Of a DNA stretch of 57,413 bases, positions 3,777-54,500 are shown piece after piece. The position numbers were made by a program, and so were the translations under genes. The notes beneath the pieces were generated by a model, which was given only the letters and a program-made list of their open reading frames with translations, made no database searches and was not told where the DNA came from. Source of the DNA: a virus (taxonomy: Duplodnaviria > Caudoviricetes); IMG/VR virus record IMGVR_UViG_3300032116_000239, positions 1 to 57,413 of that record. The stretch is one strand, 5' to 3'. The first letter of the stretch is position 1. Every line of letters starts with the position of its first letter.

Positions 3777-4790
3777 ATGGCAACTCTCCAGAAACGCGGC
3801 GACGCTTGGCGCGCCGTCATTCGCCGAGTCGGGTTCAAGCCGATCAGCAAGAGCTTCCCCACCAAGGGCCTGGCCCAAGCGTGGGCGCGCAGTGTCGAGA
3901 AGGACATGGACGCTCGGGTCTACCGCGACCCCAGCGGCGCGGCCAAGACCTCGGTGCGCGAGCTCTTTGAGCAGTTCCGCGATGAGGTCTGCCCCGAGCG
4001 CCGGGGTGGCAAGTGGGAGGTCACGCGCATCGAGCGGCTGCTGCGCACCGCGCACTTCGTTGACCAGCGGCTGGACCGCATCACGCCCGAGGACATCCGC
4101 GACTGGCGCAACGAGCGGCTGAAAGAAGTCAGCGCGCCGTCAGTCAACCGCGAACTGAACCTGATCAGCGGCGTGTTCTCGCACGCGATCAAGGAGTGGG
4201 GTGTTGCCCTGCGCGAGAACCCGGTGCACTTGGTCAAGCGCCCGGCCGGCGCGGATCGGGCTCGAACCCGGCGCTTCGGCGAGCGGGAGATCGCAGCTAT
4301 CCTGGAGGCCAGCGGCTACCAGGAGGGCGTGCAGCCCACGGTGGGTCGAGAGTATGTCGGCCACGCGGTGCTGCTGGCGATCGAGACAGCCATGCGGCTG
4401 GGCGAGATCTGTGCACTACGCGTGGGCGACGTGGACTTCGAGGCGTGCAGCGCCACGCTGCACCTGACCAAGAACGGCGACGCGCGCTCGGTGCCGCTGA
4501 GCACCAAGGCGCGGGCGTTGCTGCGCACCCTGGTGACTGGGCGTGACGCCGACGAGCAGGTCGTGCCGCTCACGGCCGAGTCGCTGGGGCTGTACTTCCG
4601 CGAGGCGCGCGACGCCGCGGGTCTGCAGGACCTGCACTTCCACGACACCCGGCACGAGGCCGCCACGCGGCTGAGCAAGAAGCTGTCGAACGTGCTGGAG
4701 CTGTCGGCCGTCACCGGCCACCGCTCGCTGCAGTCGCTCAAGCGGTACTACCAGCCGCGGGCTTCTGAACTTGCATCCAAACTCGGGTAG
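3777..4790 (+). CDS. int: Tyrosine integrase
   Basis: Catalytic motifs TAMRLGEI (R), TKNG (K), FHDTRH (HxxR), GHRS (H), RYY (Y). N-terminal arm-binding MATLQKRG..WRA. Confidence 0.95.
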   Translation: MATLQKRGDAWRAVIRRVGFKPISKSFPTKGLAQAWARSVEKDMDARVYRDPSGAAKTSVRELFEQFRDEVCPERRGGKWEVTRIERLLRTAHFVDQRLDRITPEDIRDWRNERLKEVSAPSVNRELNLISGVFSHAIKEWGVALRENPVHLVKRPAGADRARTRRFGEREIAAILEASGYQEGVQPTVGREYVGHAVLLAIETAMRLGEICALRVGDVDFEACSATLHLTKNGDARSVPLSTKARALLRTLVTGRDADEQVVPLTAESLGLYFREARDAAGLQDLHFHDTRHEAATRLSKKLSNVLELSAVTGHRSLQSLKRYYQPRASELASKLG

Positions 4791-5280
4791 CGAACGGGTG
4801 CTGCTTTGCTTTCGCTTTCAAGTACGCAGCATGCGCTTCTTCGGGGCTGTTGAACCGGCCAAGTCTTACGCGCTCTCCGGCGACAGTGATCTCGGAGTAG
4901 ATAGAGCCGTCGGGAGATATGTGTGCCCCGAGCAGCCCCGACTTGTTATGCGCTTTTGCGTTCGCTTGGTTTTGCTGATTTTCAGCTCGCGTTACGCTGC
5001 GCAGATTGCTTAGCCTGTTGTCGGTCTTGCATCCGTTCTTGTGATCAATGTCCGCCGCAGGCCAAGCGCCGGTCACGAACAACCAGATCAACCGGTGGAT
5101 GTAGACGTCTGCCCCGTTGACTCTTGTCCGCAGATAGCCGTTAGCGCCAACAGAGCCTGCTGCTGCGCCCACGGCGCCGCGGCTTCCGCGCTGCTTCTTG
5201 TTGACCAGTAGGCCCGTCTCCGGGTCGTAGTGGAAGAGGTCGCGTACTAAATCAGCCGTGATAGAGTCTGCCGCGCTCAT
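4738..5280 (-). CDS. HNH homing endonuclease with AP2-like C-terminus
   Basis: YIHRLIW...DIDHKNGCKTDNRLSNLR, followed by SGLLG..LGRF..PEEAHAAY. Confidence 0.9.
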   Translation of the reverse strand: MSAADSITADLVRDLFHYDPETGLLVNKKQRGSRGAVGAAAGSVGANGYLRTRVNGADVYIHRLIWLFVTGAWPAADIDHKNGCKTDNRLSNLRSVTRAENQQNQANAKAHNKSGLLGAHISPDGSIYSEITVAGERVRLGRFNSPEEAHAAYLKAKAKQHPFATRVWMQVQKPAAGSTA

Positions 5281-5350
5281 GGTTTCGTTCTCCTTTAACG
5301 ACACCTGGGAAGTGGCGCCTCAATGTTTGCAGCATTGGGGCGCTGCGCCA

Positions 5351-26998: not shown

Positions 26999-29272
26999 AT
27001 GGACTTCCCCAAGGAAATCGATCCCGAGCTGCTGGTGGACGTCGAGGACGACACCCAGGCTGAGATGGATCCCGAGATCGACCCAGAGCGCGAGGCCGAG
27101 ATGGCGCAGGAGCGCCTGCAGATGTTCGGCTACAACATGGCGCGCCAGCGCGACGAGTGGATCCGGGATCGGTATTCCTACGGCGTGGACAAGCGCTGGA
27201 TTGAGGACCAGGACCAGTACGACAGCAAGGACAACATCGCCAAGGCCGCCAGCCAGATGATGACCAGCGTCGAGCAGGGCTACCCTGTCACGACGCAGAT
27301 GGCCAAGCCCAACCGGTCCACCGTGTTCATCGGCATGACCCGGATGAAGACCAACGCGGCTGAGGCGCGCCTGGCCGACATCCTGCTGCCCACGGACGAC
27401 AGGAACTGGGGCATCCAGCCCACGCCCGAGCCGCATGTCATGGGTATGGTCATGGACGACCGCATGGCCGGCGACAAGCTCACCGGGCAGCCGATGGTCG
27501 ACCCTGAGACGGGGCAGCCGCTGCGCGTCAAGGACGTCGCGCGGGCTGCGCTGGAGGTGGCCCGGCGCAAGGCCGACGCCATGCAGACCCGCATCGACGA
27601 CCAGTTGACGGAGTGCGACTACAACGGTGAGCTGCGCAAGGTGATCCACGACGCCGCGGTGCTGGGCACCGGGGTGGTCAAGGGACCGGTGGTCACCAAC
27701 CGCGTGCGCAAGGCCTGGCAGCCGATGACCGACGCCATGGGCCAGACCGTGCAGACGGTGATGATCGTCGAGGAGCTGGCACCGGCGAGCTTCCGCGTGG
27801 ACCCGCGCAACGTCTTCCCCGACCCCGGCTGCGGTGAGAACGTGCACACGGGCAAGGGCATCTACGAGCGCGAGAAGCTCACCGCCAAGCAAGTCCGCGA
27901 CCTGGCTAAGCAGCCTGGCTTCATGCGCGAGCAGCTGCGCAAGGTGCTCGAAGAGGGGCCCAAGCGCTCGGCCACCTTCCAGGAGCTGCGCGACGAGGAC
28001 CAGCGCGACATCGCCCGCGACACCTACGAGATGTGGACGTACTGGGGCGAGGTCGAGCACGAGGACCTGCGCAGCGCCGGCGTTGACCCGGGCGAGGAGG
28101 ACGTGCTGCGCACCATCTCCGCGTGCGTGGTGATGATCAACAGCACCGTGGTCAAAGCGTTCCTGAACCCGCTGGAGGGTGGCGACATCCCCTACGACTT
28201 CTACGTCTGGGAGAAGGTGGCCGGCTCCTGCTGGGGCTACGGCATCCCGTACCTCATGCGCAGCCAGCAGAAGGTGCTCAACGCGGCTTGGCGCCAGCTG
28301 ATGGACAACGCAGGCGTCAGCTCGGGCCCGCAGATCGTGATGAAGCCCAGCGTCATTCAGCCGGCCGACAAGCGCTGGGAGCTGAGCTCGCGCAAGATCT
28401 GGTTTGCCACCGACGACATGGACGACGTGCGCAAGGCGTTCGCCACGTTCGAGTTCGACTCGCACCAGGCAGAGCTGGCCAACATCATCAAGATGGCCAC
28501 CGAGCTCGCCGATGCGGAGACCGGTGTGCCGATGATTGCGCAGGGCGAGCAGGGCGCTGCGCCCGAGACGGTCGGGGGCATGACCCTGCTGATGAACAGC
28601 GCCAACGTCGTGCTGCGCCGACTGGTCAAGCAGTTCGACGACATGATCACCCGGCCGCACCTGCGCCGGTACTACGACTACAACATGCTCTACGACGAGG
28701 ACGAGAGCATCAAGGGCGACTTCAGCGTCGACGCCCGTGGCTCCAGCGCCCTGCTGGTGCGCGACGTCCAGAACCAGGCGTTCCTGAACCTGCTGGCCGC
28801 GGCGGCCAACCCGATCTTCGGCAAGTACATCGACCCGAAGAAGCTCTTCGAGAAGGCGCTGCAGGCGCAGCACATCGACCCGGCTGAGGTCTTCAAGCCC
28901 GAGGACGAGATCGAGGAGATGGAGGCCGCCGAGAAGCAGGCGATGGCCCAGGCGCAGGAACCGGCCGATCCGAAGATCGAGGCCGCGCGCATCCGCGCCG
29001 AGAGCGACATGGCCAAGATTCAGGCGCAAAACGACGGCGACGCCGCGGAGCTCAACACCCGACTGCAGATCGCCCAGGCCAACATCCAAGCGCGCCGCGA
29101 GCAGATGCAGATGCAGCGCGAGATCGAGATGATGCGCTTGGCCAACCAGCAGAACGTCAGCCTGGAGCAGATCAAAGCCAAGCTGGCCGAGACGTCGATC
29201 CGCGAACGCGGCAAGAAGGAACTGTTCGCGGCCGAACAGCGTCTGAAACTCGTAGCCGGATCGGGTATCTGA
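26999..29272 (+). CDS. Portal protein
   Basis: Follows terL; LGTGVVK, VDPRNVFPDP, WGYGIP; C-terminal coiled-coil barrel. Confidence 0.9.
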   Translation: MDFPKEIDPELLVDVEDDTQAEMDPEIDPEREAEMAQERLQMFGYNMARQRDEWIRDRYSYGVDKRWIEDQDQYDSKDNIAKAASQMMTSVEQGYPVTTQMAKPNRSTVFIGMTRMKTNAAEARLADILLPTDDRNWGIQPTPEPHVMGMVMDDRMAGDKLTGQPMVDPETGQPLRVKDVARAALEVARRKADAMQTRIDDQLTECDYNGELRKVIHDAAVLGTGVVKGPVVTNRVRKAWQPMTDAMGQTVQTVMIVEELAPASFRVDPRNVFPDPGCGENVHTGKGIYEREKLTAKQVRDLAKQPGFMREQLRKVLEEGPKRSATFQELRDEDQRDIARDTYEMWTYWGEVEHEDLRSAGVDPGEEDVLRTISACVVMINSTVVKAFLNPLEGGDIPYDFYVWEKVAGSCWGYGIPYLMRSQQKVLNAAWRQLMDNAGVSSGPQIVMKPSVIQPADKRWELSSRKIWFATDDMDDVRKAFATFEFDSHQAELANIIKMATELADAETGVPMIAQGEQGAAPETVGGMTLLMNSANVVLRRLVKQFDDMITRPHLRRYYDYNMLYDEDESIKGDFSVDARGSSALLVRDVQNQAFLNLLAAAANPIFGKYIDPKKLFEKALQAQHIDPAEVFKPEDEIEEMEAAEKQAMAQAQEPADPKIEAARIRAESDMAKIQAQNDGDAAELNTRLQIAQANIQARREQMQMQREIEMMRLANQQNVSLEQIKAKLAETSIRERGKKELFAAEQRLKLVAGSGI

Positions 29273-29306
29273 ACCCTAGAATTCGACCCCAAGACAGGAG
29301 CACTGT

Positions 29307-29612
29307 ATGCCCAATCTCTATATCACCGAGTTCGCCCAAGAGGGCATTGACGCCCTGGGCCGGATCGTGCCCGTGGCGAAGGTGCCGGCCGTCACCGAAC
29401 AGAAGGTTGTGTTCAGCACGAGCACGCAAAGCGCCACGCTTGATCCGCAGACCACGCTGGTACGGCTGCACGCCGACGGCATCTGCTCGGTGGCGGTGGG
29501 CGTGAACCCGACGGCCACGACGAGCAACATGCGTCTCGGGTTGAACCAGACCGAGTACTTCGCGGTTCAGGCCAACAGCGGCCTGAAGATCGCTGCGATC
29601 AACAACACCTGA
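29307..29612 (+). CDS. Small virion beta-protein (hypothetical)
   Basis: 101 aa, AGGAG RBS; NPTAT...EYF.V...KIA motif. Confidence 0.7.
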   Translation: MPNLYITEFAQEGIDALGRIVPVAKVPAVTEQKVVFSTSTQSATLDPQTTLVRLHADGICSVAVGVNPTATTSNMRLGLNQTEYFAVQANSGLKIAAINNT

Positions 29613-29624
29613 CCGAGCGCAGAA

Positions 29625-31916
29625 ATGTTTCCAGTACCGACCCACGGCTTGATGGGGGCGATGTCGGGTGCCGACATCTCGGCAGGCGTTGCGTTGGCGC
29701 TGGACTTCATCAACGGCGCCACCAGCCTCGATCGCCGCATCACCTTCTCCCGCACCACCAACGCCACGCTGACGGACAGCACGGGCAAGATTGCCTACGC
29801 GCCACACAACCTGCTGACGAACTCGGAAAACTTTGAGGCGGCGGCTTGGGCTAAATCCGCTGGTGCCAGCGTATCTGCAAACTCAACGATTGCACCTGAT
29901 GGTACTTTGACCGCCGACACAGTGACGTTTGCGGCAAGTTCAGACTTCATCAACCAGCAAATCCTGTCCTACTCCGCAGTCAACGGGCAATCAGTCACGT
30001 TCTCAATCTATGCCAGAACGGCAACACAGCTTATTGTCTTCGGCGGCGCATCGCCTGCTGGCACGGACGTATTTACAGCAACTGCTGTAGGCGGCGGTTG
30101 GTTCCGTCAAGTTGTAACACGCACCTTCACGGTGACTGTATCTGGCACTTTGCAGTTGCTGCCAGCGGGCTTGATTATCGGAGCGGGTAGTTTTCCTATC
30201 TGGGGAGCCCAACTCAACATCGGAAGCACTGCACAGTCCTACAACTCCACCACGCCCAAGAACCTGCTTGGCTTCACTCAGGAGCCTGAGAACGCAGCGT
30301 GGACCAAGAGCAACTCGTATGTGCAGCAGAACTTGCTGACATGGAGTCAGGACTTTGACAATGCGGCTTGGAACAAAGGCAACGTAACCGTTACTGCCAA
30401 TGCCGCCATTGCTCCTGACGGATCGGCCACCGCAGACAACCTTGTAACGGTGGCTACAACAGCAATTACGGGCCCTTTCACTGTTGCTGGAGTTGCGTCT
30501 GCTACCAATACGCAGAGCTTCTACGTCAAGCAAAACGTCGGCATTCGCTATGTCCAACTCTTGTGGACGAGTTCAGGAACGTCTTCTGACTATGCTGACT
30601 TTGATCTGCAAACCGGAACACTGACGGCTGGTTCCTACGCTGGAGCGTCAATCACAGCAGCAGGGAATGGCTGGTACAGAATCAGCCTGACCTCTGCGTT
30701 GTCTGCAACCGCAGGTGGTCCTTGGTTGATTGCAATTCCAACATCCACTGCTGGCCGTGGCGCAACGTATGTGGGCAACGGTACTGACGCGCTGTTTGTC
30801 TGGGGCGCTCAACTCGTCCAAGGCTCCGTCCCCGGCGATTACCAAGTCACGACCTCTGCTGCTGCGGCGGTGCAGTACAGCGATCCAAACGGGACTCGGA
30901 CGGCGGATAAGTTGGTTGAGGATGCAGCCACAGCGTTCCATTACGCTTTTCAATTAGCAACCCCTTCTAACTCAGCGCCATACACCGTTAGTTTGTATGC
31001 CAAAGCTGCCGAAAGAACTCGACTGCGAATAAGTGGTAGCGCATCAAGTTGGGCATCTCAATCAATTGCCGTTTTTGACCTCTTAAATGGGACGGTTGTC
31101 ACTAATAGTGGCGCGTTTACAAGTGCAAGTATTGTTAGTGTTGGTAATGGGTGGTATCGCTGTACAGCAACAGGCTTGTCAAATGCAGCGCCAACACCCT
31201 CTCAGGAGATGGTTCAGATAGTTTTGGTTAGCTCCGGAACTACGGCCTCCTACACCGGCGACGGCACCTCTGGCATCTTCATCTGGGGAGCCCAGCTCAG
31301 CAACAGCGCCAGCGTGGACCCCTACGTCTACAACCCGCAAGCAGCGCCCACCAGCACGGCCTACTACGGCCCGAGGTTTGACTACAACCCGGTGACGCTG
31401 GCGGCTAACGGGCTGCTGATTGAGCAACAGTCAACCAATCTTCTGTTGTGGTCTGAGGATTTCAGCAATGCGGTTTGGGTGAACAACGGTGGAACCGTAA
31501 CGTCAAATGCGTTAGTCGCGCCTGATGGCACAACGACTGCGGATTATTTGGTTCGTTCCACAGCATCTGGTGATGGTAGATATCAAGCAATATCTGCTGG
31601 AACATCTGGAGTTTTGACAGCTTCAATTTACATCAAGAAAGACACGGCGGTAAATTCTGCCATTTGGATTTACGACGCTACGGCTGTAGCGGATAGAGCG
31701 TTTGCGACCATTACTTGGTCCGGTTCCACTCCGACACTTACGGCAACAGTCGGCACTGCTGGAACACCCATAGACGCTGGTAATGGTTGGTGGCGTATAT
31801 CAATCACCTCAACAGCGCTAGTTGGGGCGAACACCAATCGCCTCTACTTGTTGCCAGCGTACACCGCTTCTAGCAATGGACAACAGACGGCATTCTGGGG
31901 TGCCCAGCTGGAGTAA
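29625..31916 (+). CDS. Head/tail fibre (spike) protein, N-terminal part
   Basis: Four NLL...WGAQL beta-sandwich modules, plus PRFDY..GLLIE..TNLL. Ends abruptly at WGAQLE. Confidence 0.8.
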   Translation: MFPVPTHGLMGAMSGADISAGVALALDFINGATSLDRRITFSRTTNATLTDSTGKIAYAPHNLLTNSENFEAAAWAKSAGASVSANSTIAPDGTLTADTVTFAASSDFINQQILSYSAVNGQSVTFSIYARTATQLIVFGGASPAGTDVFTATAVGGGWFRQVVTRTFTVTVSGTLQLLPAGLIIGAGSFPIWGAQLNIGSTAQSYNSTTPKNLLGFTQEPENAAWTKSNSYVQQNLLTWSQDFDNAAWNKGNVTVTANAAIAPDGSATADNLVTVATTAITGPFTVAGVASATNTQSFYVKQNVGIRYVQLLWTSSGTSSDYADFDLQTGTLTAGSYAGASITAAGNGWYRISLTSALSATAGGPWLIAIPTSTAGRGATYVGNGTDALFVWGAQLVQGSVPGDYQVTTSAAAAVQYSDPNGTRTADKLVEDAATAFHYAFQLATPSNSAPYTVSLYAKAAERTRLRISGSASSWASQSIAVFDLLNGTVVTNSGAFTSASIVSVGNGWYRCTATGLSNAAPTPSQEMVQIVLVSSGTTASYTGDGTSGIFIWGAQLSNSASVDPYVYNPQAAPTSTAYYGPRFDYNPVTLAANGLLIEQQSTNLLLWSEDFSNAVWVNNGGTVTSNALVAPDGTTTADYLVRSTASGDGRYQAISAGTSGVLTASIYIKKDTAVNSAIWIYDATAVADRAFATITWSGSTPTLTATVGTAGTPIDAGNGWWRISITSTALVGANTNRLYLLPAYTASSNGQQTAFWGAQLE

Positions 31917-31921
31917 CCAAC

Positions 31922-32404
31922 ATGATGGAACACGACCTCGTAAAAGAACTGTTTGACTATCGTGATGGTCACTTGTACTGGAAGAAGAAAACCAACAAGA
32001 GACACAGCATCGACAAGCCCGCTGGGACGATCAACTCCCTTGGCTACGTTGTCATCACGCTCAACGGCAAGAAGATGCATGAGCACAGGCTGGTGTGGTT
32101 GTGGCACGGCAAAGAGTTGCCTGTGATGATTGACCACATCAACCGAGACAAGTCAGACAACAGGATTGAGAACCTTCGCGCTGCTGACTACATCACCAAC
32201 TCGTACAACAGCAAGCTGAAGACCGACAACACCTCTGGCGTCAAAGGCGTGAGTTGGTGCAATACCTACAACAAGTGGGTTGTGCAGATTTACGCGAACA
32301 AGCAGAAGATTTCTAAACGGTTTGACCTGATGCAAGATGCCATTGACTTTGCCAAGCAAAAGCGCCAAGAGTTGCATCAAGCATTTGCCTGTGAAGGGGT
32401 ATAA
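31922..32404 (+). CDS. HNH homing endonuclease inserted in the fibre gene
   Basis: HEHRLVW...IDHINRDKSDNRIENLR, NTSGVKGVSW. Confidence 0.9.
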   Translation: MMEHDLVKELFDYRDGHLYWKKKTNKRHSIDKPAGTINSLGYVVITLNGKKMHEHRLVWLWHGKELPVMIDHINRDKSDNRIENLRAADYITNSYNSKLKTDNTSGVKGVSWCNTYNKWVVQIYANKQKISKRFDLMQDAIDFAKQKRQELHQAFACEGV

Positions 32405-32406
32405 AA

Positions 32407-32934
32407 ATGGCAGCATTTGCTACATCGTATATACCGACACAAGCCTCCCAAGTCACCCGAGCAGCGGACAATGCGTCGATGCTGGGGGATAACTTTGCGA
32501 CTTGGTTCAATGCGAGTCAGGGGACGTTGTACGCGGAAGCCACAAGCAGTGTTCCTAGTTCCGATGCAGTGGTTAGGTTTGCTGCCGTTGTGTTTGACGC
32601 AGCTAGCTACTCAAATGCTTTGAGACTTGAGCGTCTTGGTGGTTCTGCTAGGTATGTCCAAACCGTGAGCGGAGTAAGCAACGTAGCAACCGCGACTTGG
32701 AACGCGGGCGATACGGTTGCAATAGCAGCGGCATACCAAAACAGCAATAACGCAGCAGCGTTCAACGGCGGGGCAGCACAGGCTGTTGCTGGCAACGTGC
32801 CGACGGGGCTTGTAACTCTTGGCATAGGCGGCCACGGCACGATAAGCGCTAACAGTCTTTGCGGGTATGTGCGCTCCATCAGCTACTACCCCACGCGCCT
32901 GTCCAACGCAACTCTTCAGGCCATCACAGCATGA
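32407..32934 (+). CDS. Fibre protein C-terminal part (LamG/ConA-like)
   Basis: Begins AFATSYIPT...VTRAAD, the usual continuation of WGAQLE. Ends YYPTRLSNATLQAIT. Confidence 0.8.
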   Translation: MAAFATSYIPTQASQVTRAADNASMLGDNFATWFNASQGTLYAEATSSVPSSDAVVRFAAVVFDAASYSNALRLERLGGSARYVQTVSGVSNVATATWNAGDTVAIAAAYQNSNNAAAFNGGAAQAVAGNVPTGLVTLGIGGHGTISANSLCGYVRSISYYPTRLSNATLQAITA

Positions 32935-33257
32935 CCGACGAAACCCTAACCGAGCCCATCGTCCAAGAGGGCTACTGCGACTACATGGTGGTCTTCGCTG
33001 ATGAGGATGAGGCTATTGCAGTCCTGTACGACTCAACCACCGATGGTGAAGGCAACGTGACGCTGACGCCGCGCTTCACTGCGGTGGACATGATCGGCAC
33101 GATTTACGAGCCTGCGCCTGATCCGGTGCCTGAGAACTACAAGCCGCTGCCGTACACGGGCTACCACGCCAACGTGCGCAACATCGGGCCAGCGCCTGAG
33201 CTGGATGCGTTTGTGGTGAGCCCGACTCCCGTAACTCCTCTTCGTGTGTGGGCCTGA
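32931..33257 (+). CDS. Fibre-associated small protein
   Basis: D.IGTIY...GYHANVR...P.TPLRVWA motif usually found after this fibre type. Confidence 0.65.
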   Translation: MTDETLTEPIVQEGYCDYMVVFADEDEAIAVLYDSTTDGEGNVTLTPRFTAVDMIGTIYEPAPDPVPENYKPLPYTGYHANVRNIGPAPELDAFVVSPTPVTPLRVWA

Positions 33258-33282
33258 AGGCAGAAAGATCGTGAACGTGGCC

Positions 33283-33549
33283 ATGACTGACTCTGACTTC
33301 CAGCGGCTTGAAGCCAAAGTGGACAAGCTCACCGACGCCATCCAGCGGCTGATCCTCATCGAGGAGAGGCAGTCCAGTCAGGGCGAGCGGATCGGCAAGT
33401 GCGAGGCCTCGATCGCCGTGCACGACACGATGATCCACAAGACCGACAAGAAGGTCGACCAGTGGATCAACCGCGGCATCGGGGTGTGGGTCGCGGCCAC
33501 CATGCTCTTCGCGGTGGTGCAGTTCGGCGCCAAGTTCATGGGGAAATGA
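33283..33549 (+). CDS. Coiled-coil + single-TM protein (holin/XhlA-like)
   Basis: N-terminal heptads and a C-terminal TM helix. Confidence 0.55.
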   Translation: MTDSDFQRLEAKVDKLTDAIQRLILIEERQSSQGERIGKCEASIAVHDTMIHKTDKKVDQWINRGIGVWVAATMLFAVVQFGAKFMGK

Positions 33550-33917
33550 AGATGGGCAAAGCAGGCGAGCTGATCGCGATGGTCTTTGTGGGCCGCGACA
33601 TGGCGCATCGCGCCCACCTGAGCACGCGCAGCTACGCTGAGCACATGGCGCTCGGCGGCTTCTACGAGGGCATCATCCCGCTGGTGGACGGCTTCGCTGA
33701 GGCCTACCAGGGGCGGTTCAACGAGCTGCTGGACATCCCGCTGGCCGACAACGACTTCGAGGGCGAGATCGGCGACGTGCTGGAGCAGCAGATGTCGTGG
33801 ATCGAGGACAACCGCGAAGCCATCGCGCCGCGCAGCGAGAGCGCGCTGCACAACGCGCTGGACGAAATAGTGAGCCTCTATCAAGCGACGCTGTACAAAC
33901 TGCGTTTCCTATCGTAG
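33546..33917 (+). CDS. Ferritin/Dps-like four-helix protein (DUF5856-like)
   Basis: AHRAHL.TRSYAEHMAL..FY......D.FAEAYQG...LYKL.FL. Confidence 0.75.
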   Translation: MKMGKAGELIAMVFVGRDMAHRAHLSTRSYAEHMALGGFYEGIIPLVDGFAEAYQGRFNELLDIPLADNDFEGEIGDVLEQQMSWIEDNREAIAPRSESALHNALDEIVSLYQATLYKLRFLS

Positions 33918-33941
33918 ACTTTTTCGCGGCAAGGTGCGTCC

Positions 33942-34145
33942 ATGATCGACTACCAATCCGCCACCTGGCATCTGCTGCGAAAGTGGGCAGATGAGCAGCT
34001 AAGGCGGGCCCGCGAGAAGAACGATTCCGCGGACTTGGACGCCACAGAGACCGCCGCCCTGCGCGGCGAGATCCGACTACTCAAAAGATTCCTTGATCTG
34101 CCCAACGCGGCAGCTCGGGACCTAAGCGTGCTGCCGGACGAATAG
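33942..34145 (+). CDS. Small head-assembly-region protein
   Basis: ETAALRGEIRLLK..L.LP, typical of the gene preceding the scaffold. Confidence 0.7.
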   Translation: MIDYQSATWHLLRKWADEQLRRAREKNDSADLDATETAALRGEIRLLKRFLDLPNAAARDLSVLPDE

Positions 34146-34167
34146 TCCCGCCGCACGATGGCAAGCG

Positions 34168-34195
34168 AGCCACCTTCGGGTGGCTTTTGTGTTTT
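34168..34195 (+). terminator. Intrinsic terminator-like hairpin
   Basis: AGCCACC-TTCG-GGTGGCT followed by a T-rich tail. Confidence 0.7.
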
Positions 34196-34209
34196 CTGGA
34201 GGGCATGAA

Positions 34210-35127
34210 GTGGATGAACAGCTGACTCAGGAGCAGATGCAAGAGCTCTGGAACGAAGAGGCCGAAAAACTTGACGCCGGCGAGCAATTGCCCGCGTTAG
34301 AGCTACAGGCCGATGCGCCAGCCGCCCAAGAGGCGCCGCCGCAGGAAGAAGTTCCGCAAGCTCAAGCAGCAGTCCCGGAGCAGGCAGCCGATCCGCTCGC
34401 CGGTCTACCCGAGGAAGTGAAGGCGGCTCTGGCCAAGATCACGCACCTTGAGCAGGCCAATGCCCAGTTGCAGCACAAGGTCAATTCGGCCGAGGGTCGA
34501 GTGGCTGCGATGCAGCGTGAGTTCCAGCAGGCGAAGGTGGCGCAGCAATCCGTTGCCCCACAAGACGCGCCGACGCAGGGACAAATGGCTGCAGCGGCCA
34601 AGAACCCGGAGAAGTGGGAATCACTCAAGAACGACTTTCCTGAGTGGGCTGGTGCGATGGAAGAGTACGTCGCGTCCAAGCTCAGCGGTGTGCAGTCGCA
34701 AGACAAGCCCGGCATTTCGTCGGATTTGGTTGTCGAGTACGTCAGACGAGAAATCGCTGCCGAGCGCGAGACGATTGCCAAGCGCATCGAGGAAGCCAAG
34801 GTTGAAGGCAAGTACGACGACTGGCGCGAGACGGTGAACACACCGGAATTCGCGGCATGGTTCGCACTGCAGCCAGCCCAGACGAAAGCGCTCGCGGACA
34901 GCACTGCTGCCAAGGACGCCATTCGGCTGCTTGATTCGTACCACCAGGCCAAGGCCAAGCCCGCTGCCGAAGTGAGGCAAGAGCGCTCAGCGCGACTTGC
35001 AATGGCTGCAACAACTCGCCCGGGGCAGACACCGCCACCCAAGACGATGGGTGACATGTCGCCAGCCGAACTCTGGAACTACGAAGCCGCGCAGCGTGAG
35101 AAGACTCGCGCAGCCCGCGGCTACTGA
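34210..35127 (+). CDS. Capsid scaffolding protein
   Basis: Acidic N-terminus and coiled coil, immediately upstream of the MCP. GTG start inferred from the GGAGG RBS. Confidence 0.75.
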   Translation: MDEQLTQEQMQELWNEEAEKLDAGEQLPALELQADAPAAQEAPPQEEVPQAQAAVPEQAADPLAGLPEEVKAALAKITHLEQANAQLQHKVNSAEGRVAAMQREFQQAKVAQQSVAPQDAPTQGQMAAAAKNPEKWESLKNDFPEWAGAMEEYVASKLSGVQSQDKPGISSDLVVEYVRREIAAERETIAKRIEEAKVEGKYDDWRETVNTPEFAAWFALQPAQTKALADSTAAKDAIRLLDSYHQAKAKPAAEVRQERSARLAMAATTRPGQTPPPKTMGDMSPAELWNYEAAQREKTRAARGY

Positions 35128-35154: not shown

Positions 35155-36213
35155 ATGTCTATCCAAAACTACGGCACCGTTGCGTCGCGAAACCTCATTC
35201 GCGCGGCGCAAGGCATGCTGGAGCACGCACAGCCCATCACTGTTCTGGGTGACTTTGGCACCCAGCGCGAGATGCCCCAGAACTCGACCGACACCCTGGT
35301 CTTCCGTCGTACGCTGCCCTTCGGCGCTTCGACCACCGGCACGACGATCGAGAACAGCCAGCGCTACGTTGGCACGCCTGACGTCACGGCGTCGAACTTC
35401 GTGCTGGCTGAAGGCGTCACGCCCAACGCCAACACGATCTCGTTCCAGGACGTGAGCGTGCAGCTGCAGCAGTACGGTATCTTGTTCAAGTACAGCTCCA
35501 AGGTCGAGCAGCTGTACGAAGACGACATCCCTGGCGAGATGGTCAAGCTGACTGGCGAGACCCTGGCCGAGGTGATGGAGCTCGTGCGCTACGGCGTGCT
35601 GAAGGCCGGCTCCACGGTGATCTACGCCAACGGCTCCAGCCGCTCGGCCGTGAACACCGCGATCAGCCTGAACGCCCTGCGCAAGGCCGCTCGTACGCTG
35701 GAGTCCAACCGCGCTCGCCGCGTGACCAGCCGCCTGGCTCCTGGCGTGAACTTCGGCACCCGTGCTGTGCAGCCCGCGTTCATCGTGTTCTGCCACACCG
35801 ACGCTGTGAGCGACGTGCGTAACCTGCCCGGCTTCACCCGGGTGGAAGAGTACGGCTCGTTCAAGCCCATCCACGACCGTGAGGTCGGGGCTTGCGAGGA
35901 CTTCCGCTTCATCAGCTCGCCGCTGCTCAAGAGCTTCGCCGCTTCGGGCTCCGGCACGCTCAACGGCATGCTGTCCATCGGCGCCTCCAACGTGGACGTG
36001 TACCCCTTCATCATCATCGGTGAGGACTGCTGGGGCCAGGTTGCGCTCAAGGGCATGGCGGCCATCAAGCCGGTGGTGCTCAAGGCCAGCCAGACCAACC
36101 ACGCCAACCCGCTGGGCCAGTTCGGCTACGTGGGTGCTTCGACATGGTTCGCCACGGTCCGCCTCAACGACGCCTTCATGGCTCGTATCGAGGCCGGCGT
36201 GACCGCTCTGTGA
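35155..36213 (+). CDS. Major capsid protein (N4-gp56 family)
   Basis: FG....MP.N....FRR, L.EGVTP, LQQYG, EVG....RF, NPLGQ.GYVG. Confidence 0.92.
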   Translation: MSIQNYGTVASRNLIRAAQGMLEHAQPITVLGDFGTQREMPQNSTDTLVFRRTLPFGASTTGTTIENSQRYVGTPDVTASNFVLAEGVTPNANTISFQDVSVQLQQYGILFKYSSKVEQLYEDDIPGEMVKLTGETLAEVMELVRYGVLKAGSTVIYANGSSRSAVNTAISLNALRKAARTLESNRARRVTSRLAPGVNFGTRAVQPAFIVFCHTDAVSDVRNLPGFTRVEEYGSFKPIHDREVGACEDFRFISSPLLKSFAASGSGTLNGMLSIGASNVDVYPFIIIGEDCWGQVALKGMAAIKPVVLKASQTNHANPLGQFGYVGASTWFATVRLNDAFMARIEAGVTAL

Positions 36214-51582: not shown

Positions 51583-54500
51583 ATGGCGAACCCCTGGGAA
51601 AGAGCGTGGGCGGTTGAGGATGAGGAGGCCAAGCCGTGGACCCGTTCCTGGGAAGTTGATGCGCCTGATCGAAAACCCGCCGGGTTCTTCAGCGAACTTG
51701 GGTCGGCCGTCAGCGAAGGCGCGCAGAAGACCTACCGCTCGGCACGCGCTGCGCTCAGCACCTACCTGGGCGCTGGCGAAGACGTCGTCGAGCAGTCGGC
51801 GCGCACGCAAGAGATTGAGCGGGACTCTCGCGCCACCGGCCTGACCCAACTCAAGCGAGACGTTCAAGCGCGCAAGGTCGCGGACGACGACTCGCTGTGG
51901 TCTGGCATCAAGAACGTCGCCGGCGCCATTATTGACAACCCGCGCGGCGGGGCACAGCTGGTGGCTGAGCAGGCGCCCAACGCCGCTGTGGCACTGGGCA
52001 CAGGCTTCGCCGGGGCCAAGGGCGGCGCGCTGATCGGCTCTGCGTTCGGCCCTGTGGGCACCGCAGTCGGTGGAACGGTCGGCTTCATCACCGGTCTGTT
52101 CGGCGCGAACACGCTGCTGGAGACCGGCGGCAAGGCGATTGAGGCTGGTCAAGACAAGCAGTTCACACCCGCAGAGCGCGAGCGCGTGATGCGCGAGGGC
52201 GCGGTCAAGGGCGCAGTCATCACCGGTGTTGACGCGGTCACCCTGGGCGCAAGCAAGTACGTGCTTGGCGCAGCGAATCGCGCCGTCGAGCAAGCCACCG
52301 TGCGTACGCTGTCAGACGCTGGCATCGACGCGCAGAAAGCCGCGCAAGCTATCCAGCAGGCGCAGCGCGATGCGCTGCAAGCCGGCCGGGGCCTGAGCCG
52401 CGAGGCGCTGCAGGAGTCCGTTGAGAAGGCGACGGTCGAGGCGATGGCCCGCCAAGGTCTGCTCAAGCCTGACCTGGTGTCGGCTGTGCAGTCCGCGCAG
52501 AAAGCCGCCTTCGACACCAGCACCACGCTTGCGAAACGCACGGGACGCGGTGCGACCGCGCTGGGCTTGGAGTCGTTCGGCGAGGGACTGGGCGAGTACA
52601 CCGGTGAGCTGGCCGCTACCGGTGAGGCGTCGTTCACCGATGCGGCGCTGGAGTCTGTGGCCGGCTTGGCCACGAGCCTGCCTGAGCTGTACGTCGCCAA
52701 GCGGCTTGACCAGCCGGGCATCCTGACTCAGGAGATGTCGCGCTCCCGTCCGCTCGACCAGGCGTCGCCGCCCGCACCGCCCTCCGCGCTGCAGGACCTC
52801 GGCACCGCCAACACCGAGCTCAGCTCAGCGGTGGACTCCTACCTGCGCGATCTCGGCCAGGCCCGCACCGCCGACGAGGCGATCAATGCAGCGGTCAGCG
52901 CGGCCTCGGTGCCGGTGGCTCCGACCCTGCCGCCGCTGCCCACCATGGACGAGCGGCTGGCCGCCGCGGAGAGCCCGGGCCTGCTCGGCCGTCAGCTCGA
53001 CATCCAGCGCCAGCTCGATCAAGCCGCCGGCTTGGACGTCGCGCCGACTGCCGAGCGTCCTGCGTTGCCGACTCTGCCGCCGCTGCCGCAGCCCGCTGCC
53101 CAGCGCAACATGGAGCTGATGGGCCAAGCTGCGCAGGCCGGCACGGAGTTCGAGCGCCAGCAGGCGCTTGAGCAGGCCAAGGTCTCGCTGCCCACTCCGG
53201 CACCGGGCCCGGCCGCCCGCTACGCCGACCTCACGCCGATGGACGCGCGCCAGGCGCAGCAGCGGCTGACGGTGCTGCAGGAGCAGACCGGCACCCCGCT
53301 GAGCCTGGAGATCGTCCCGCACCCGGCGCAGAAGGAGCGCTTTGCGATCGGCCGGCGCGAGCTGCCGGTCAGCGCCGCCGACCTGGAGATGCCGGACCTG
53401 CGCGCCCCTGTGGCGCCTGCGCAAGCCCAGGTGCAGATCGAGTCTGCAGCCCTGGCCGGCAAGGAAGTGCAGCGCCGCGCAGAGGACGCGCCGCGCCAGC
53501 AGATGATCAGCCGGGCGATGGCCAACATCGAAGCCCGCGGCGGAGTGGCCTCACCCTACGAGGCAGAGCTGCTGCGCTCGGCCAACCTGGGCCAGCCGTA
53601 CAACAGCATTGATCCGAACCTTGGCCGCCCGGCTTCTCAGGACCAACTGCTGACCGCAGCCACCGGCATCCCGGTCGGCTCCGAGGCGGGTCTGGGCTAC
53701 GGTGCTCGCACAGACAATGCGCTGACCGACATTGCGCAACAGACCGCGCAACAGCGCGGCGAGCTCGTGCAGCGAAACCCGCAAGCTGCGGGACAGAACA
53801 TCTTCTCCCGGGTCAGCGACCAAGACGTTCAGCAGCGCATCCCGTTGGAGCGCAACCGCACGCCGGACGATGTCTCCACCGGGTTTGCCTACACGCCCGA
53901 GCTGCAGGGCCGCAAGCGCGCCGAGCCGGCGGAGCAAGCTGCGCCGCAGGCCGACATCGTCGGCACGTTCGTGCAGCAGATGCGCGAGACCAACACGCCC
54001 GCAGCCCGGGCGTTCGTGCAGGACTACGAGGCCGGGCGCATCTCGCCGGCTGAGGTGCAAAGCGCGCTGGACATCCAGCGTGGTCTGCCGCCAAGCTCGC
54101 AAGAGCGCATCGAGGGCGCGGCCGCAGCAGCGCCGGCTCCCGCCACGCCGACCGGCGTGCAGGTGGAAACGCCCAGCGCCAGAGTCGAGAACCCCGCACT
54201 GCGCGAGGCGGTGGAGCTGTACGGCAACCGCCCGCTCACGCAGCAAGACCTGACGGTGGAGGGCGCCACGGCGCGCATCGCTCGCGCCGGCCAGCAGGCT
54301 CCGGCACCGCAGGTCACGGCAAGCGGCATCGAGATCGCCCAGAGCGAGGACCTGACGCCACGCGGGGCGTTCCGCGGGCGCAACGAGGCGATCCGTGCCG
54401 GCAATAACCTGCCGAGGCCGACGATGGTCGGCGGCCGCCGTGCCGCGTCGCTCACGGACGCTGATCTGCAGCAGACAGCCAACGACATGGGGCTGCCGGC

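What the first reader, a model, noticed from the sequence alone, without database searches (positions are those of the whole stretch)
31896..32460. Fibre gene cut in two at a conserved motif by an intron-less HNH gene
Seen: the 763-aa ORF ends WGAQLE-stop. An HNH ORF starts 5 nt later, and 2 nt after its stop a new ORF begins MAAFATSYIPT...VTRAAD. From recall, homologous fibres read contiguously as WGAQLE-xG-AFATSYIPT. The last codons of fragment 1 (CTG GAG) supply the HNH Shine-Dalgarno, and the HNH tail (GAAGGGG) supplies one for fragment 2. There is no non-coding room for an intron core. Established precedent: free-standing endonucleases can split genes whose halves reassemble as proteins (mobE in Aeh1 nrdA). 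Inference: a domesticated split of a structural/receptor-binding protein, where homing could also co-convert the adjacent host-range module.
Basis: partly seen in the sequence, partly recalled or inferred. Interest (0 to 1): 0.82.

Follow-up and report, generated by a model that had tools for sequence, protein, structure and literature searches.

The report
Phage fibre gene split by endonuclease
A mobile HNH endonuclease gene sits inside a phage virion-fibre gene and cuts it into two separately translated pieces that are predicted to snap back together, a rare case of a structural gene in pieces.

Summary
Fragment 1 (29625-31916) ends FWGAQLE-TAA. An intact HNH_3 endonuclease ORF follows after 5 nt (31922-32404). 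Fragment 2 (32407-32934, MAAFATSYIPT...) starts 2 nt after its stop.

One PHROG fibre profile covers both fragments back to back. Relatives read straight through this point: 20 of 28 close junctions, and 79 of 80 plus 25 of 25 in the wider family. Every split allele I could inspect carries an endonuclease gene in the gap. It is either the window's forward HNH_3 type or an unrelated HNH on the opposite strand, inserted at the same nucleotide. Both types recur at 66-68% identity in a second phage group.

Natural pairs with and without the endonuclease gene exist (99.94% identical downstream). Identical cassettes lie next to different C-terminal modules. No intron, intein or joint that skips the insert was found. 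A complex model (0.84; best control 0.18) docks fragment 2's first 21 residues onto fragment 1's last domain.

The closest characterised relative is the RcGTA head spike fibre, so "tail fibre" is not established. I file this as a new member of the known genes-in-pieces kind. Protein reassembly and homing remain inferred.

The parts
29625..31916 (+). Fibre fragment 1 (763 aa). It holds four lectin-like repeat domains, each ending in WGAQ, and ends FWGAQLE-TAA.
   Evidence: ORF; phrog_5939 'tail protein' at 1.1e-78, best stretch at profile positions 395-583. RcGTA head spike fibre Rcc01080 at 5.3e-24. WGAQ at residues 193, 393, 554 and 758.
31347..31913 (+). Last domain of fragment 1 (residues 575-763). 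This is the predicted docking platform for the N-terminus of fragment 2.
   Evidence: interface residues 21-38 and 185-189 of this piece; invariant G22, E26, N31 and S36; the homologous domain in the fused relative is modelled with block pLDDT mostly 81-98.
31910..31921 (+). GGAG (inside the last two codons of fragment 1), the TAA stop, and the 5-nt spacer before the HNH ATG.
   Evidence: the window reads TGGGGTGCCCAGCTGGAG where most relatives read TGGGGCGCTCAACTAGAA. That is five synonymous changes, one of which creates GGAG.
31922..32404 (+). Free-standing HNH_3 (plus weak AP2) endonuclease gene, 160 aa. GC is 48.7% against 64.5% for the window.
   Evidence: a homologue 66% identical sits at the same site in L184.
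32393..32406 (+). GAAGGGG Shine-Dalgarno sequence inside the HNH tail, the HNH stop TAA, and the 2-nt spacer before fragment 2.
32407..32934 (+). Fibre fragment 2 (175 aa). It has a conserved N-terminal docking peptide (residues 1-21) and a variable LamG/ConA-like lectin domain with a conserved C-terminal tail.
   Evidence: phrog_5939 positions 586-761; 10,867 relatives, nearly all as the C-terminal end of longer proteins; jellyroll pair; docking.
32443..32511 (+). DNA-level conserved linker block. It is identical at synonymous sites among alleles that differ elsewhere. It marks a recombination boundary and is the presumed endonuclease recognition neighbourhood.
   Evidence: a 29-nt exact block is present in 19 viral and 25 metagenome contigs; column conservation; similarity to L018 ends at 32511; depth is 100-300 times that of flanking unique sequence, and joints lie at 32506/32511.
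32512..32871 (+). Variable core of the C-terminal module. Median pairwise identity among alleles is about 30%.
   Evidence: joints run from 32506/32511 to 32872-32917, with other sequence in between.

Best explanation
A free-standing homing-type HNH endonuclease gene has been inserted, without an intron or intein, exactly between the codon for E763 and the next codon of a virion fibre (adhesin) gene. The insertion lies in the middle of a roughly 100-nt linker that is conserved at the DNA level. That linker separates the repeat-domain shaft from an exchangeable C-terminal lectin-like module.

The inserted cassette brings everything the host gene needs to survive. It supplies a stop codon directly after E. 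It supplies a ribosome-binding site and an ATG that replaces the first linker codon, so A-G-[S/A]-F becomes M-A-A-F. The locus is therefore read as three cistrons on one late transcript: fragment 1, the HNH gene (coupled through a GGAG made from fragment 1's last codons), and fragment 2 (ribosome-binding site inside the HNH tail).

The two fibre polypeptides are inferred to reassemble without a covalent bond. Fragment 2's conserved first 21 residues (AAFATSYIPTQASQVTRAAD) are predicted to lie as an added strand on the conserved N-terminal strand and the WGAQLE strand of fragment 1's last domain. This would tether the variable lectin domain.

In the population the cassette behaves as a mobile element. 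It is present or absent in otherwise near-identical alleles. It is embedded with short identical flanks in unrelated fibre backgrounds. It is interchangeable with a second, unrelated HNH gene on the other strand at the same nucleotide position.

Shown: the anatomy, contiguity in relatives, presence/absence polymorphism, mosaic flanks, and the absence of intron or intein features.

Inferred: cleavage of the allele that lacks the endonuclease gene, homing, absence of splicing in vivo, protein reassembly, and presence of fragment 2 in virions.

The confidence of 0.8 is for the whole statement. Taken singly, I put the endonuclease-gene insertion that splits the gene at about 0.95, two separate polypeptides without splicing at about 0.85, and reassembly by strand docking at about 0.6.
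For: Anatomy:
- One profile covers both fragments back to back.

Contiguity in relatives:
- 15 of 19 viral loci read through the point.
- 17 of 25 metagenome loci read through.
- After removing duplicates, 20 of 28 distinct junctions are fused and 8 are split.
- In the wider family 79 of 80 loci and 25 of 25 loci are fused.

The split always comes with an endonuclease gene:
- The gap is 490 nt (forward HNH_3) or 578 nt (reverse HNH) wherever the contig reaches fragment 1. Contigs that end earlier run into endonuclease sequence.
- Ten of 10 viral contigs with an ATG at the junction hold an HNH gene. This includes a second phage group, L180-L185.

The reverse HNH is a real gene:
- Pfam HNH hit at 2.4e-6.
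- 29 of 48 differences fall on its third codon positions.

Both endonuclease lineages recur in the second group, at 66% and 68% protein identity.

Mobility signatures:
- L018 (with the endonuclease gene) against L019 (without): 99.94% over 1559 nt downstream and 93.3% over 702 nt upstream.
- L065 shares a 704-nt block with L018 at 98.2% (cassette plus short flanks), in an otherwise unrelated fragment 1. Its C-module is 100% identical to the fused allele L003.
- L066 equals L018 upstream and in the cassette (99.5% over 1411 nt) but carries another C-module.

No intron:
- Rfam E-value scans found no intron or ribozyme.
- Only 7 non-coding bases exist in the gap.

No intein: the fragment ends coincide with the fused sequence and carry no extra residues.

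Fragment 2 is retained:
- It is intact in all 7 complete split alleles.
- dN/dS is 0.29 for split L004 against fused L051. Fused-against-fused controls give 0.13 and 0.23.
- Nine of the best 150 representative clusters start with M at this junction.

Complex model:
- ipSAE is 0.84 (runs 0.84, 0.82, 0.84) against a best control of 0.18.
- The mark was reached by 58 of 80 solved complexes and by 2 of 110 mismatched pairs.
- The runs agree in at least 86% of contacts, and the partner's pLDDT is at least 88.
- The interface is fragment 2 residues 1-21 with fragment 1 piece residues 21-38 and 185-189.
- This supports binding but does not show it. My own alignments, cut from fused homologues, were used.

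Model of a fused relative: pLDDT is 86 for the block that holds FATSYIPT. The low-confidence hinge lies after it (residues 211-220, pLDDT 48). The cut is therefore inside a structural unit and not at the hinge.

Sequence homology to solved chains runs through this segment.
Against: - No RNA or protein data bear directly on this locus. The only RNA-library contig (X20, depth 2.8) belongs to the other endonuclease type and may be contaminating DNA.
- No sibling of the window's own allele without the endonuclease gene was found. Gain or loss is documented only for the reverse-HNH type.
- Module reassortment also occurs among alleles without the endonuclease gene (for example L006/L057 and L011/L063). 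The endonuclease is therefore not needed to explain the mosaics.
- Split alleles are a minority (8 of 28). Several pairs with and without the endonuclease gene are almost identical, as expected for a recent, possibly mildly harmful parasite.
- The complex model rests on alignments taken from fused proteins. It may only reproduce the intramolecular contact of the uninterrupted fibre.
- The genomic context of the more distant stand-alone proteins (P0062, P0076, P0111, P0132) could not be seen. A split without an endonuclease gene somewhere is not excluded.
Confidence: 0.8

Rival explanations
1. Parasitic insertion with loss of function. The endonuclease gene has truncated the fibre. Fragment 2 is still translated, or merely still open because the event is recent. 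It does not rejoin the fibre, so the virion carries a fibre without its C-terminal lectin module.
For: Split alleles are the minority, 8 of 28. L018/L019 and L065/L003 have identical C-modules, so these events are recent and selection has had little time to act. In RcGTA, particles without head spikes still transfer genes, though at low frequency (passages of PMC10218006). A fibre of this kind may therefore be dispensable.
Against: Both endonuclease lineages have diverged to 66-68% identity between two phage groups. Fragment 2 keeps its ATG, its ribosome-binding site and a full-length frame throughout. dN/dS is 0.29 for the split allele L004 against a fused one. Nine representative clusters of stand-alone proteins start at this junction, and their linkers have diverged. 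The complex model passes its controls.
Confidence: 0.13
2. The insert is removed at the RNA level, by a group I or II intron or by some other splicing or bypass. A single fibre polypeptide is then made.
For: Many phage HNH genes are carried in introns (established knowledge; review PMC2988022, passages). The cut lies at a conserved motif, as is usual for introns.
Against: Only 5 and 2 non-coding bases flank the ORF. No Rfam intron or ribozyme appeared in E-value scans of the window at 29000-34000 or of L018, L002 and L004. Fragment 1 has its own stop, and fragment 2 has its own ribosome-binding site and an ATG that fused alleles lack. In sister alleles the endonuclease gene is on the opposite strand. 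No joint skipping 31917-32406 was seen in the four runs laid. Those were contigs, so this is weak evidence.
Confidence: 0.03
3. The fibre was ancestrally two genes in this lineage. The endonuclease genes merely landed in a pre-existing intergenic gap, as was proposed for seg43 in the already split gene 43 of phage 25.
For: Two unrelated HNH genes share the same fragment-2 start (ATG GCA GCN TTT...). This suggests that at least one of them entered an already split site. The precedent is discussed in PMC2988022 (passages).
Against: No split allele without an endonuclease gene was seen: 0 of 8 distinct split junctions and 0 of 6 further contigs. Fused alleles dominate both the close set (20 of 28) and the wide sets (79 of 80; 25 of 25). 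Fused and split alleles share identical modules (L018/L019, L065/L003).
Confidence: 0.04
4. Assembly chimera or mis-assembly at a repeated conserved linker.
For: The linker block is shared by many much more abundant genomes in the same samples, at depth 100-300 times that of the flanks. Such a place invites chimeric joins.
Against: The same junctions occur in several independently named contigs (L001, L055, L059; L018, L062, L065, L066, L068). They also occur in a second phage group. A 1036-nt contig of a DNA run bridges fragment 1, the HNH gene and the start of fragment 2 without a mismatch.
Confidence: 0.01

Closest known systems
mobE-split nrdA of Aeromonas phage Aeh1 ('genes-in-pieces'; Friedrich et al. 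2007, as described in the review PMC2988022, passages read)
   Same: A free-standing HNH endonuclease gene lies inside a coding sequence that is contiguous in relatives. No intron or intein is involved. The result is two polypeptides that must reassemble.
   Different: The target here is a virion fibre/adhesin, not a nucleotide-metabolism enzyme. The cut lies in a DNA-conserved module-exchange linker. Reassembly here is only modelled, whereas for NrdA it was shown biochemically according to that review.
Split gene 43 (43A/43B) of Aeromonas phages 25 and 44RR, with either seg43 or an untranslated spacer in the gap, and T4 mobA between genes 39 and 60 (PMC2988022)
   Same: Alternative inserts occupy one split site. 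The question is the same: did an endonuclease gene enter an already split gene?
   Different: Here both alternatives are intact HNH genes of different Pfam families on opposite strands. No split form without an endonuclease gene was found.
Homing-endonuclease islands at boundaries of genetic exchange between phages (Barth et al. 2023, PMC10448857; abstract from the listing and passages)
   Same: The endonuclease gene sits exactly where similarity between related phages begins and ends, next to structural genes.
   Different: That work, as far as I read it, describes endonuclease genes near or within operons. In the passages I read, the only gene split it mentions is the nrdA case. The term 'tail fiber' had 0 occurrences in its main text.
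RcGTA head spike fibre Rcc01080 (PDB 6TB9 and related entries; PMC7296036 and PMC10218006, passages)
   Same: This is the best solved-structure sequence match: profile E 1.2e-58 over the last domain plus the WGAQLE-AG-...IPT..VTRAAD linker, and 5.3e-24 with fragment 1 alone. It is a lectin-like, flexible fibre. The window's gene also lies in the head module.
   Different: Rcc01080 is one 325-residue chain with a single such domain. Its N-terminal Ile/Leu-Gly anchor and its pentameric base protein were not recognised here. PHROG and Foldseek also link the domain to tail and baseplate proteins: E217 gp45 and Pa193 gp46.

Membership tests
Free-standing homing endonuclease gene (HNH; intronless homing) | HNH (His-Me finger) catalytic domain, intact | tested here: met
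   Window ORF: Pfam HNH_3 at 7.2e-10, 38.8 bits against a cut-off of 24.8. Sister-allele reverse ORF: Pfam HNH at 2.4e-6, 28 bits against a cut-off of 21.4. Both frames are full length.
Free-standing homing endonuclease gene (HNH; intronless homing) | Not embedded in an intron or intein | tested here: met
   Seven non-coding bases in all. No Rfam intron. The ORF is out of frame and bounded by stops. The fragment ends carry no extra residues.
Free-standing homing endonuclease gene (HNH; intronless homing) | Presence/absence polymorphism at one conserved site among otherwise similar genomes, with identical cassette flanks in diverged backgrounds | tested here: met
   Shown for the reverse-HNH type: L018/L019, L065/L003 and L066. 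For the window's forward type no sibling without the endonuclease gene was found. A homologue 66% identical does sit at the same site in L184.
Free-standing homing endonuclease gene (HNH; intronless homing) | Site-specific cleavage of the allele that lacks the gene, and biased inheritance in crosses | not testable with these tools
   Needs purified enzyme and co-infection experiments.
Genes-in-pieces (endonuclease-split gene with functional reassembly) | Gene contiguous in relatives, with the endonuclease gene exactly between the two fragments | tested here: met
Genes-in-pieces (endonuclease-split gene with functional reassembly) | Each fragment has its own stop, or its own ribosome-binding site and start, and stays open under purifying selection | tested here: met
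   dN/dS is 0.29. The arrangement is retained in a second phage group.
Genes-in-pieces (endonuclease-split gene with functional reassembly) | The two polypeptides assemble into a working protein | tested here: inconclusive
   Model only: ipSAE 0.84 against a best control of 0.18. The mark was reached by 58 of 80 solved complexes and by 2 of 110 mismatched pairs. Contact agreement is at least 86% and the partner's pLDDT is at least 88. There are no protein data.
Intron-encoded endonuclease (group I/II intron) | Ribozyme core flanking or surrounding the ORF | tested here: not met
   No match in the Rfam E-value scans. Of the 490-nt insert, 483 nt are ORF.
Fractured gene with split intein | Intein-N at the end of fragment 1 and intein-C at the start of fragment 2 | tested here: not met
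   Fragment 1 ends at the residue that precedes the linker in fused alleles. Fragment 2 starts at the next residue, with total length conserved.
RcGTA-type head spike fibre (Rcc01080) | Sequence homology of the lectin-like domain and linker | tested here: met
   E 1.2e-58 (profile) and 5.3e-24 (fragment 1 alone).
RcGTA-type head spike fibre (Rcc01080) | Attachment to capsid vertices through a pentameric jellyroll base protein and an N-terminal Ile/Leu repeat | tested here: inconclusive
   The 101-aa ORF just upstream (29307-29612) folds as a confident beta-sandwich (pLDDT 96.9). It gave no sequence hit to the base protein and no clear fold match (Foldseek E at least 0.13; best VIA Z 6.2).

The most novel reading that the evidence does not exclude
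The endonuclease cassette is a portable gene-splitting module carrying a stop, a ribosome-binding site and a start. Two endonuclease lineages pass it around a family of freshwater phage fibres. By breaking the uninterrupted linker in co-infecting relatives, it drives exchange of the adjacent lectin tip. Because the tip is then a separate protein held only by a 21-residue docking strand, tips from different co-infecting phages could also be swapped at the protein level. The selfish element would thus double as an engine of adhesin (host-range) diversification.
Probability: 0.2. Interest if true: 0.8.

Novelty: new member of a known kind. Interest (0 to 1): 0.62.

Why it matters
The gene splits by free-standing endonucleases described in the review I read (PMC2988022) concern enzymes of DNA metabolism: nrdA, gene 43 and the topoisomerase genes.

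This case offers three things. The target is a virion adhesin. The data contain natural alleles with and without the endonuclease gene. Two alternative endonuclease genes use the same nucleotide position.

It makes three questions directly testable:
- Can a structural protein tolerate being cut if a short docking strand is kept?
- Do endonuclease-made breaks at a module boundary speed up exchange of receptor-binding modules?
- How does one endonuclease gene replace another at a fixed site?

It also warns annotators. Stand-alone proteins of about 175 aa that begin MAAFATSYIPT are fibre tips, not separate genes.

Tried and rejected
- **Near-identical DNA in the phage collection:** no match. By protein, fragment 2 found only five cyanophage records, each covering 24% of it.
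- **Rfam:** only chance-level matches.
- **Promoter and terminator scan, 29000-34300:** one promoter-like site against 1.8 expected. Nothing bears on the HNH gene.
- **RNA hairpin over the HNH ribosome-binding site:** z = -1.66, not significant.
- **Context of distant stand-alone fragment-2 proteins:** scans with P0062 and P0111 returned only fused loci. In one search I read 25 of the 31 loci. The six I left out (L149-L154) are the same contigs as loci already read.
- **Head-spike base protein:** tested on the 101-aa upstream ORF. No sequence hit. The Atlas gave only unnamed viral clusters. Foldseek gave nothing at E up to 0.001. The best VIA-wide Z was 6.2, a generic beta-sandwich. Result: inconclusive.
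- **'Translational bridge' idea:** the frame exactly opposite the reverse HNH is open (0 stops; P about 0.01 from fibre codon usage). However, the window's forward HNH, where no such selection applies, has only 1 stop in the same relative frame, and group 2 also has 1. I dropped the idea as probably a codon-usage effect.
- **Packaging-associated HNH:** rejected. The gene is about 5 kb from the terminase gene, is polymorphic in presence, and belongs to the common HNH_3 family.
- **Reads:** no joint skipping the insert was listed. These are contigs, so this proves nothing. The run X20 contig, from an RNA library, runs from window-like fragment 1 into the reverse-HNH junction. That is one contig at depth 2.8 and may be DNA.
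- **Paper supplements:** not consulted. Those of PMC10448857 (tables of endonuclease-gene neighbourhoods) might list fibre genes.
- **Literature searches for a fibre gene split by an endonuclease:** no such case was found in the listings and passages I read. The nearest were endolysin ORFs interrupted by HNH or intron insertions in Staphylococcus phages (PMC13729910, passages).

Full report
**1. What is in the window**

- ORF 29625..31916 (+) encodes 763 aa and ends ...TAFWGAQLE, with stop TAA at 31914-31916.
- After five bases, ORF 31922..32404 encodes 160 aa.
- After two more bases, ORF 32407..32934 encodes 175 aa and begins MAAFATSYIPTQASQVTRAAD.
- The middle ORF is an HNH endonuclease. It hits Pfam HNH_3 at 7.2e-10, above the curated cut-off, and has a weak AP2 hit below the cut-off. 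It also hits phrog_99 at 1.6e-54.
- Its family is very common in phages: 3402 records have a match, the best at about 40% identity.
- GGAG at 31910-31913, formed by the last two codons of fragment 1, lies 8 nt before the HNH ATG.
- GAAGGGG at 32393-32399, inside the HNH tail, lies 7 nt before the fragment-2 ATG.
- One PHROG profile (phrog_5939, 'tail protein', 801 positions) matches fragment 1 at positions 395-583 and fragment 2 at positions 586-761. The two ORFs are therefore consecutive parts of one family.

**2. Relatives read through the point**

- A scan of viral contigs with fragment 2 gave 19 loci. Fifteen read straight through: 14 as WGAQLE-[AQ]G-[SAG]F[AS]TS[YL]I and one as AWQIEAGSFATSLIPT. 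Four are split.
- A 29-nt piece of the linker occurs letter for letter in all 19 viral contigs and in 25 metagenome contigs. Of those 25, 17 are fused and 8 are split.
- After removing duplicates there are 28 distinct junctions: 20 fused and 8 split.
- In the wider family, 79 of the best 80 loci found with an alignment of stand-alone tips are fused. The one split locus is a contig already known.
- All 25 further loci found with two distant stand-alone proteins are fused.
- A search of 1.84 billion representatives found 10,867 relatives of fragment 2 at E up to 0.001. Among the best 150, nearly all carry the domain at the C-terminal end of proteins of 240-6800 aa.
- Nine of those 150 are stand-alone proteins of 169-182 aa whose first residue aligns with fragment 2's M. 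Eight begin MAAF and one begins MGAF.
- The uninterrupted state is therefore the rule, and the split is derived.

**3. Every split allele carries an endonuclease gene, of one of two unrelated kinds**

- Where the contig reaches fragment 1, the gap is 490 nt with the window's forward HNH_3 gene (window, L001, L055, L059). Otherwise it is 578 nt (L018, L062, L065, L066, L068).
- The 578-nt gap encodes, on the opposite strand, a 179-aa protein with a classical HNH domain (Pfam PF01844, 2.4e-6).
- Differences between copies fall mainly on that frame's third codon positions (29 of 48), so it is a real gene.
- The contigs cut short (L002/L049 and L004/L054) run into this same gene.
- Both kinds share the same fragment-2 start, ATG GCA GC[A/G] TTT GCT ACA TCG TAT ATA CCG ACA CAA. 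Fragment 1 stops directly after the E codon in both.
- A pattern search for an ATG at this junction found 10 viral contigs: 4 already known and 6 new (L180-L185). The new ones belong to a second phage group, with a shorter fibre and other neighbouring genes.
- Five of the six new contigs hold a reverse HNH that is 68% identical to L018's. One (L184) holds a forward HNH that is 66% identical to the window's. In L184 an ATGA overlap couples it to fragment 1, and its stop abuts the fragment-2 ATG.
- No allele was split without an endonuclease gene.

**4. Signs of mobility and of module exchange**

- L018 (with the endonuclease gene) and L019 (without) are 99.94% identical over 1559 nt downstream of the junction and 93.3% over 702 nt upstream. 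They differ by the cassette and by a cluster of synonymous changes in the next 21 nt.
- L065 shares with L018 only a 704-nt block at 98.2%. That block runs from 25 nt of fragment 1 through the cassette to about 100 nt of fragment 2. Its fragment 1 is otherwise unrelated. Its C-terminal module is 100% identical to that of the fused allele L003.
- L066 equals L018 upstream and in the cassette (99.5% over 1411 nt) but has another C-module.
- The variable cores of the C-modules have a median identity of about 30%. The linker, in contrast, is conserved at synonymous sites.
- All split alleles carry one downstream haplotype. Some fused alleles carry halves of it (L006 the first half; L005, L011, L019 and L063 the second half). 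This is what conversion tracts of varied length would leave, but it is not proof.
- In metagenome runs the linker and the conserved 3' tail are 100-300 times deeper than the window's unique sequence. Loose ends show the fused haplotype in the same samples. Alleles with and without the endonuclease gene therefore meet.
- Modules also reassort among fused alleles. The endonuclease's contribution remains an inference.

**5. Alternatives to a true split**

- *Intron.* There is no room (7 non-coding bases). There is no Rfam match in the window at 29000-34000 or in L018, L002 and L004. The sister endonuclease gene is antisense.
- *Intein or split intein.* The fragment ends coincide with the fused sequence and total length is kept: A-G-[S/A]-F becomes M-A-A-F.
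- *Chimera.* Many independent contigs show the junctions, and a 1036-nt contig of run X5 bridges 31410-32445 without a mismatch.
- *RNA.* The only RNA-library evidence is one contig (X20, depth 2.8). It lies on 31729-31900 with 6 differences and runs on into the reverse-HNH junction. It is unspliced there, belongs to the other endonuclease type, and may be DNA.

**6. Is fragment 2 kept and used?**

- It is full length in all complete split alleles.
- The C-module of split L004 against fused L051 gives dN/dS 0.29. Fused-against-fused controls give 0.13 and 0.23.
- The ATG and ribosome-binding site persist in two phage groups, while both endonucleases diverged to 66-68% identity.
- A model of the fused relative's last domain plus tip (L019; 76-row alignment) has mean pLDDT 83.8 and pTM 0.64. 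The segment right after the cut (FATSYIPT) has pLDDT 86. The weak hinge comes later, at residues 211-220, with pLDDT 48.
- Homology to solved chains also runs through this segment.
- The complex model of fragment 1 residues 575-763 with fragment 2 scored ipSAE 0.84 (runs 0.84, 0.82, 0.84), against 0.18 for the best of three controls.
- That mark was reached by 58 of 80 solved complexes and by 2 of 110 mismatched pairs. The runs agree in at least 86% of contacts, and the partner's pLDDT is at least 88.
- Fragment 2 residues 1-21 touch residues 21-38 and 185-189 of the fragment-1 piece. Both surfaces are the most conserved stretches of their alignments.
- This supports binding by strand docking but does not show it. 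The alignments were cut from fused proteins, so the model may simply recall the intramolecular contact.

**7. What kind of fibre is it?**

- Foldseek puts the domain pair next to baseplate and tail-fibre chains of Pseudomonas phages Pa193 and E217 (E 1.5e-10 and 7e-9). It also finds laminin-G pairs and CBM40 sialic-acid-binding modules.
- By sequence, the best solved entry is the head spike fibre Rcc01080 of the Rhodobacter gene transfer agent (profile E 1.2e-58). Next come E217 gp45, Pa193 gp46 and a tail fibre gp17.
- According to passages of PMC7296036 and PMC10218006, that fibre is a single flexible chain. It is anchored by its N-terminus to a pentameric base on capsid vertices, and it binds the capsular polysaccharide.
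- The window's gene lies between the portal (26999-29272) and the scaffold-like and major-capsid genes (35155-36213). A head fibre is therefore as likely as a tail fibre.
- I could not recognise a base protein.

**8. Comparison with what is known**

- The mechanism is that of the genes-in-pieces cases reviewed in PMC2988022: mobE in nrdA of Aeh1, seg43 or an untranslated spacer in gene 43, and mobA between genes 39 and 60.
- The position at a boundary of exchange matches Barth et al. 2023 (PMC10448857).
- I found no description of a fibre gene split in this way in five searches. That covers only open-access text and only the listings and passages I read.
- I therefore rate it a new member of a known kind, with three features of interest: a structural target, natural pairs with and without the endonuclease gene, and two endonuclease lineages alternating at one nucleotide position in two phage groups.

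Noticed in passing
window 4738-5304 (-): A second HNH_3-like ORF, 34-38% identical to the fibre-borne HNH proteins, lies on the minus strand in a genome otherwise read on the plus strand.
   Followed up: partly
window 29800-32800: The fibre locus is a low-GC island: 49-56% against 64.5% for the whole window, with the HNH gene at 48.7%. This fits a cassette exchanged with phages of lower GC.
   Followed up: partly
window 29307-29612 (+): The 101-aa ORF just upstream of the fibre folds as a very confident small beta-sandwich (pLDDT 96.9) with no clear solved relative. 74 homologues were found, all about 100 aa. One is named from a Macromonas nakdongensis record, a possible hint to the host.
   Followed up: yes
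L018 5419-5988 (+), and the same place in L065, L066 and L068: The frame exactly opposite the reverse HNH is open for 189 codons. It starts in an ATGA overlap with fragment 1's stop and ends 12 nt before fragment 2. A control (the window's forward HNH has only 1 stop in the same relative frame) suggests a codon-usage effect rather than a translational bridge.
   Followed up: yes
L181 536-787 (+) and L183 4159-4407 (+): In the second phage group the short ORF overlapping the start of the fibre gene begins M-L-I-G-L-N-L-K-L (L181) or M-Q-I-G-I-N-L-R-L (L183). [quoted passage not shown]
   Followed up: no
window 30798 and upstream; L055, L001: Contigs identical to the window from about 30798 onward differ upstream. 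L055 is 99.9% identical downstream but only 68-96% in patches upstream. L001 shares only the first 61 residues of the small ORF. The shaft repeats therefore also reassort.
   Followed up: partly
window 2-3565 (+) and 51583-57324 (+): A 5'-open ORF of 1187 aa matches the C-terminal third of giant-protein PHROGs (phrog_14770, 1.5e-202), with a weak DarB-like hit. A 1913-aa ORF carries a GP88 domain.
   Followed up: no
window 34167-34186 (+): A strong terminator-like hairpin (8 pairs, followed by a T-run) lies just before the scaffold-like gene.
   Followed up: no
run X20 contig on window 31729-31900: A contig from an RNA library is 96.5% like the window's fragment-1 end but continues into the reverse-HNH junction. 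A window-like shaft therefore also exists with the other endonuclease gene. This rests on one contig at depth 2.8.
   Followed up: no
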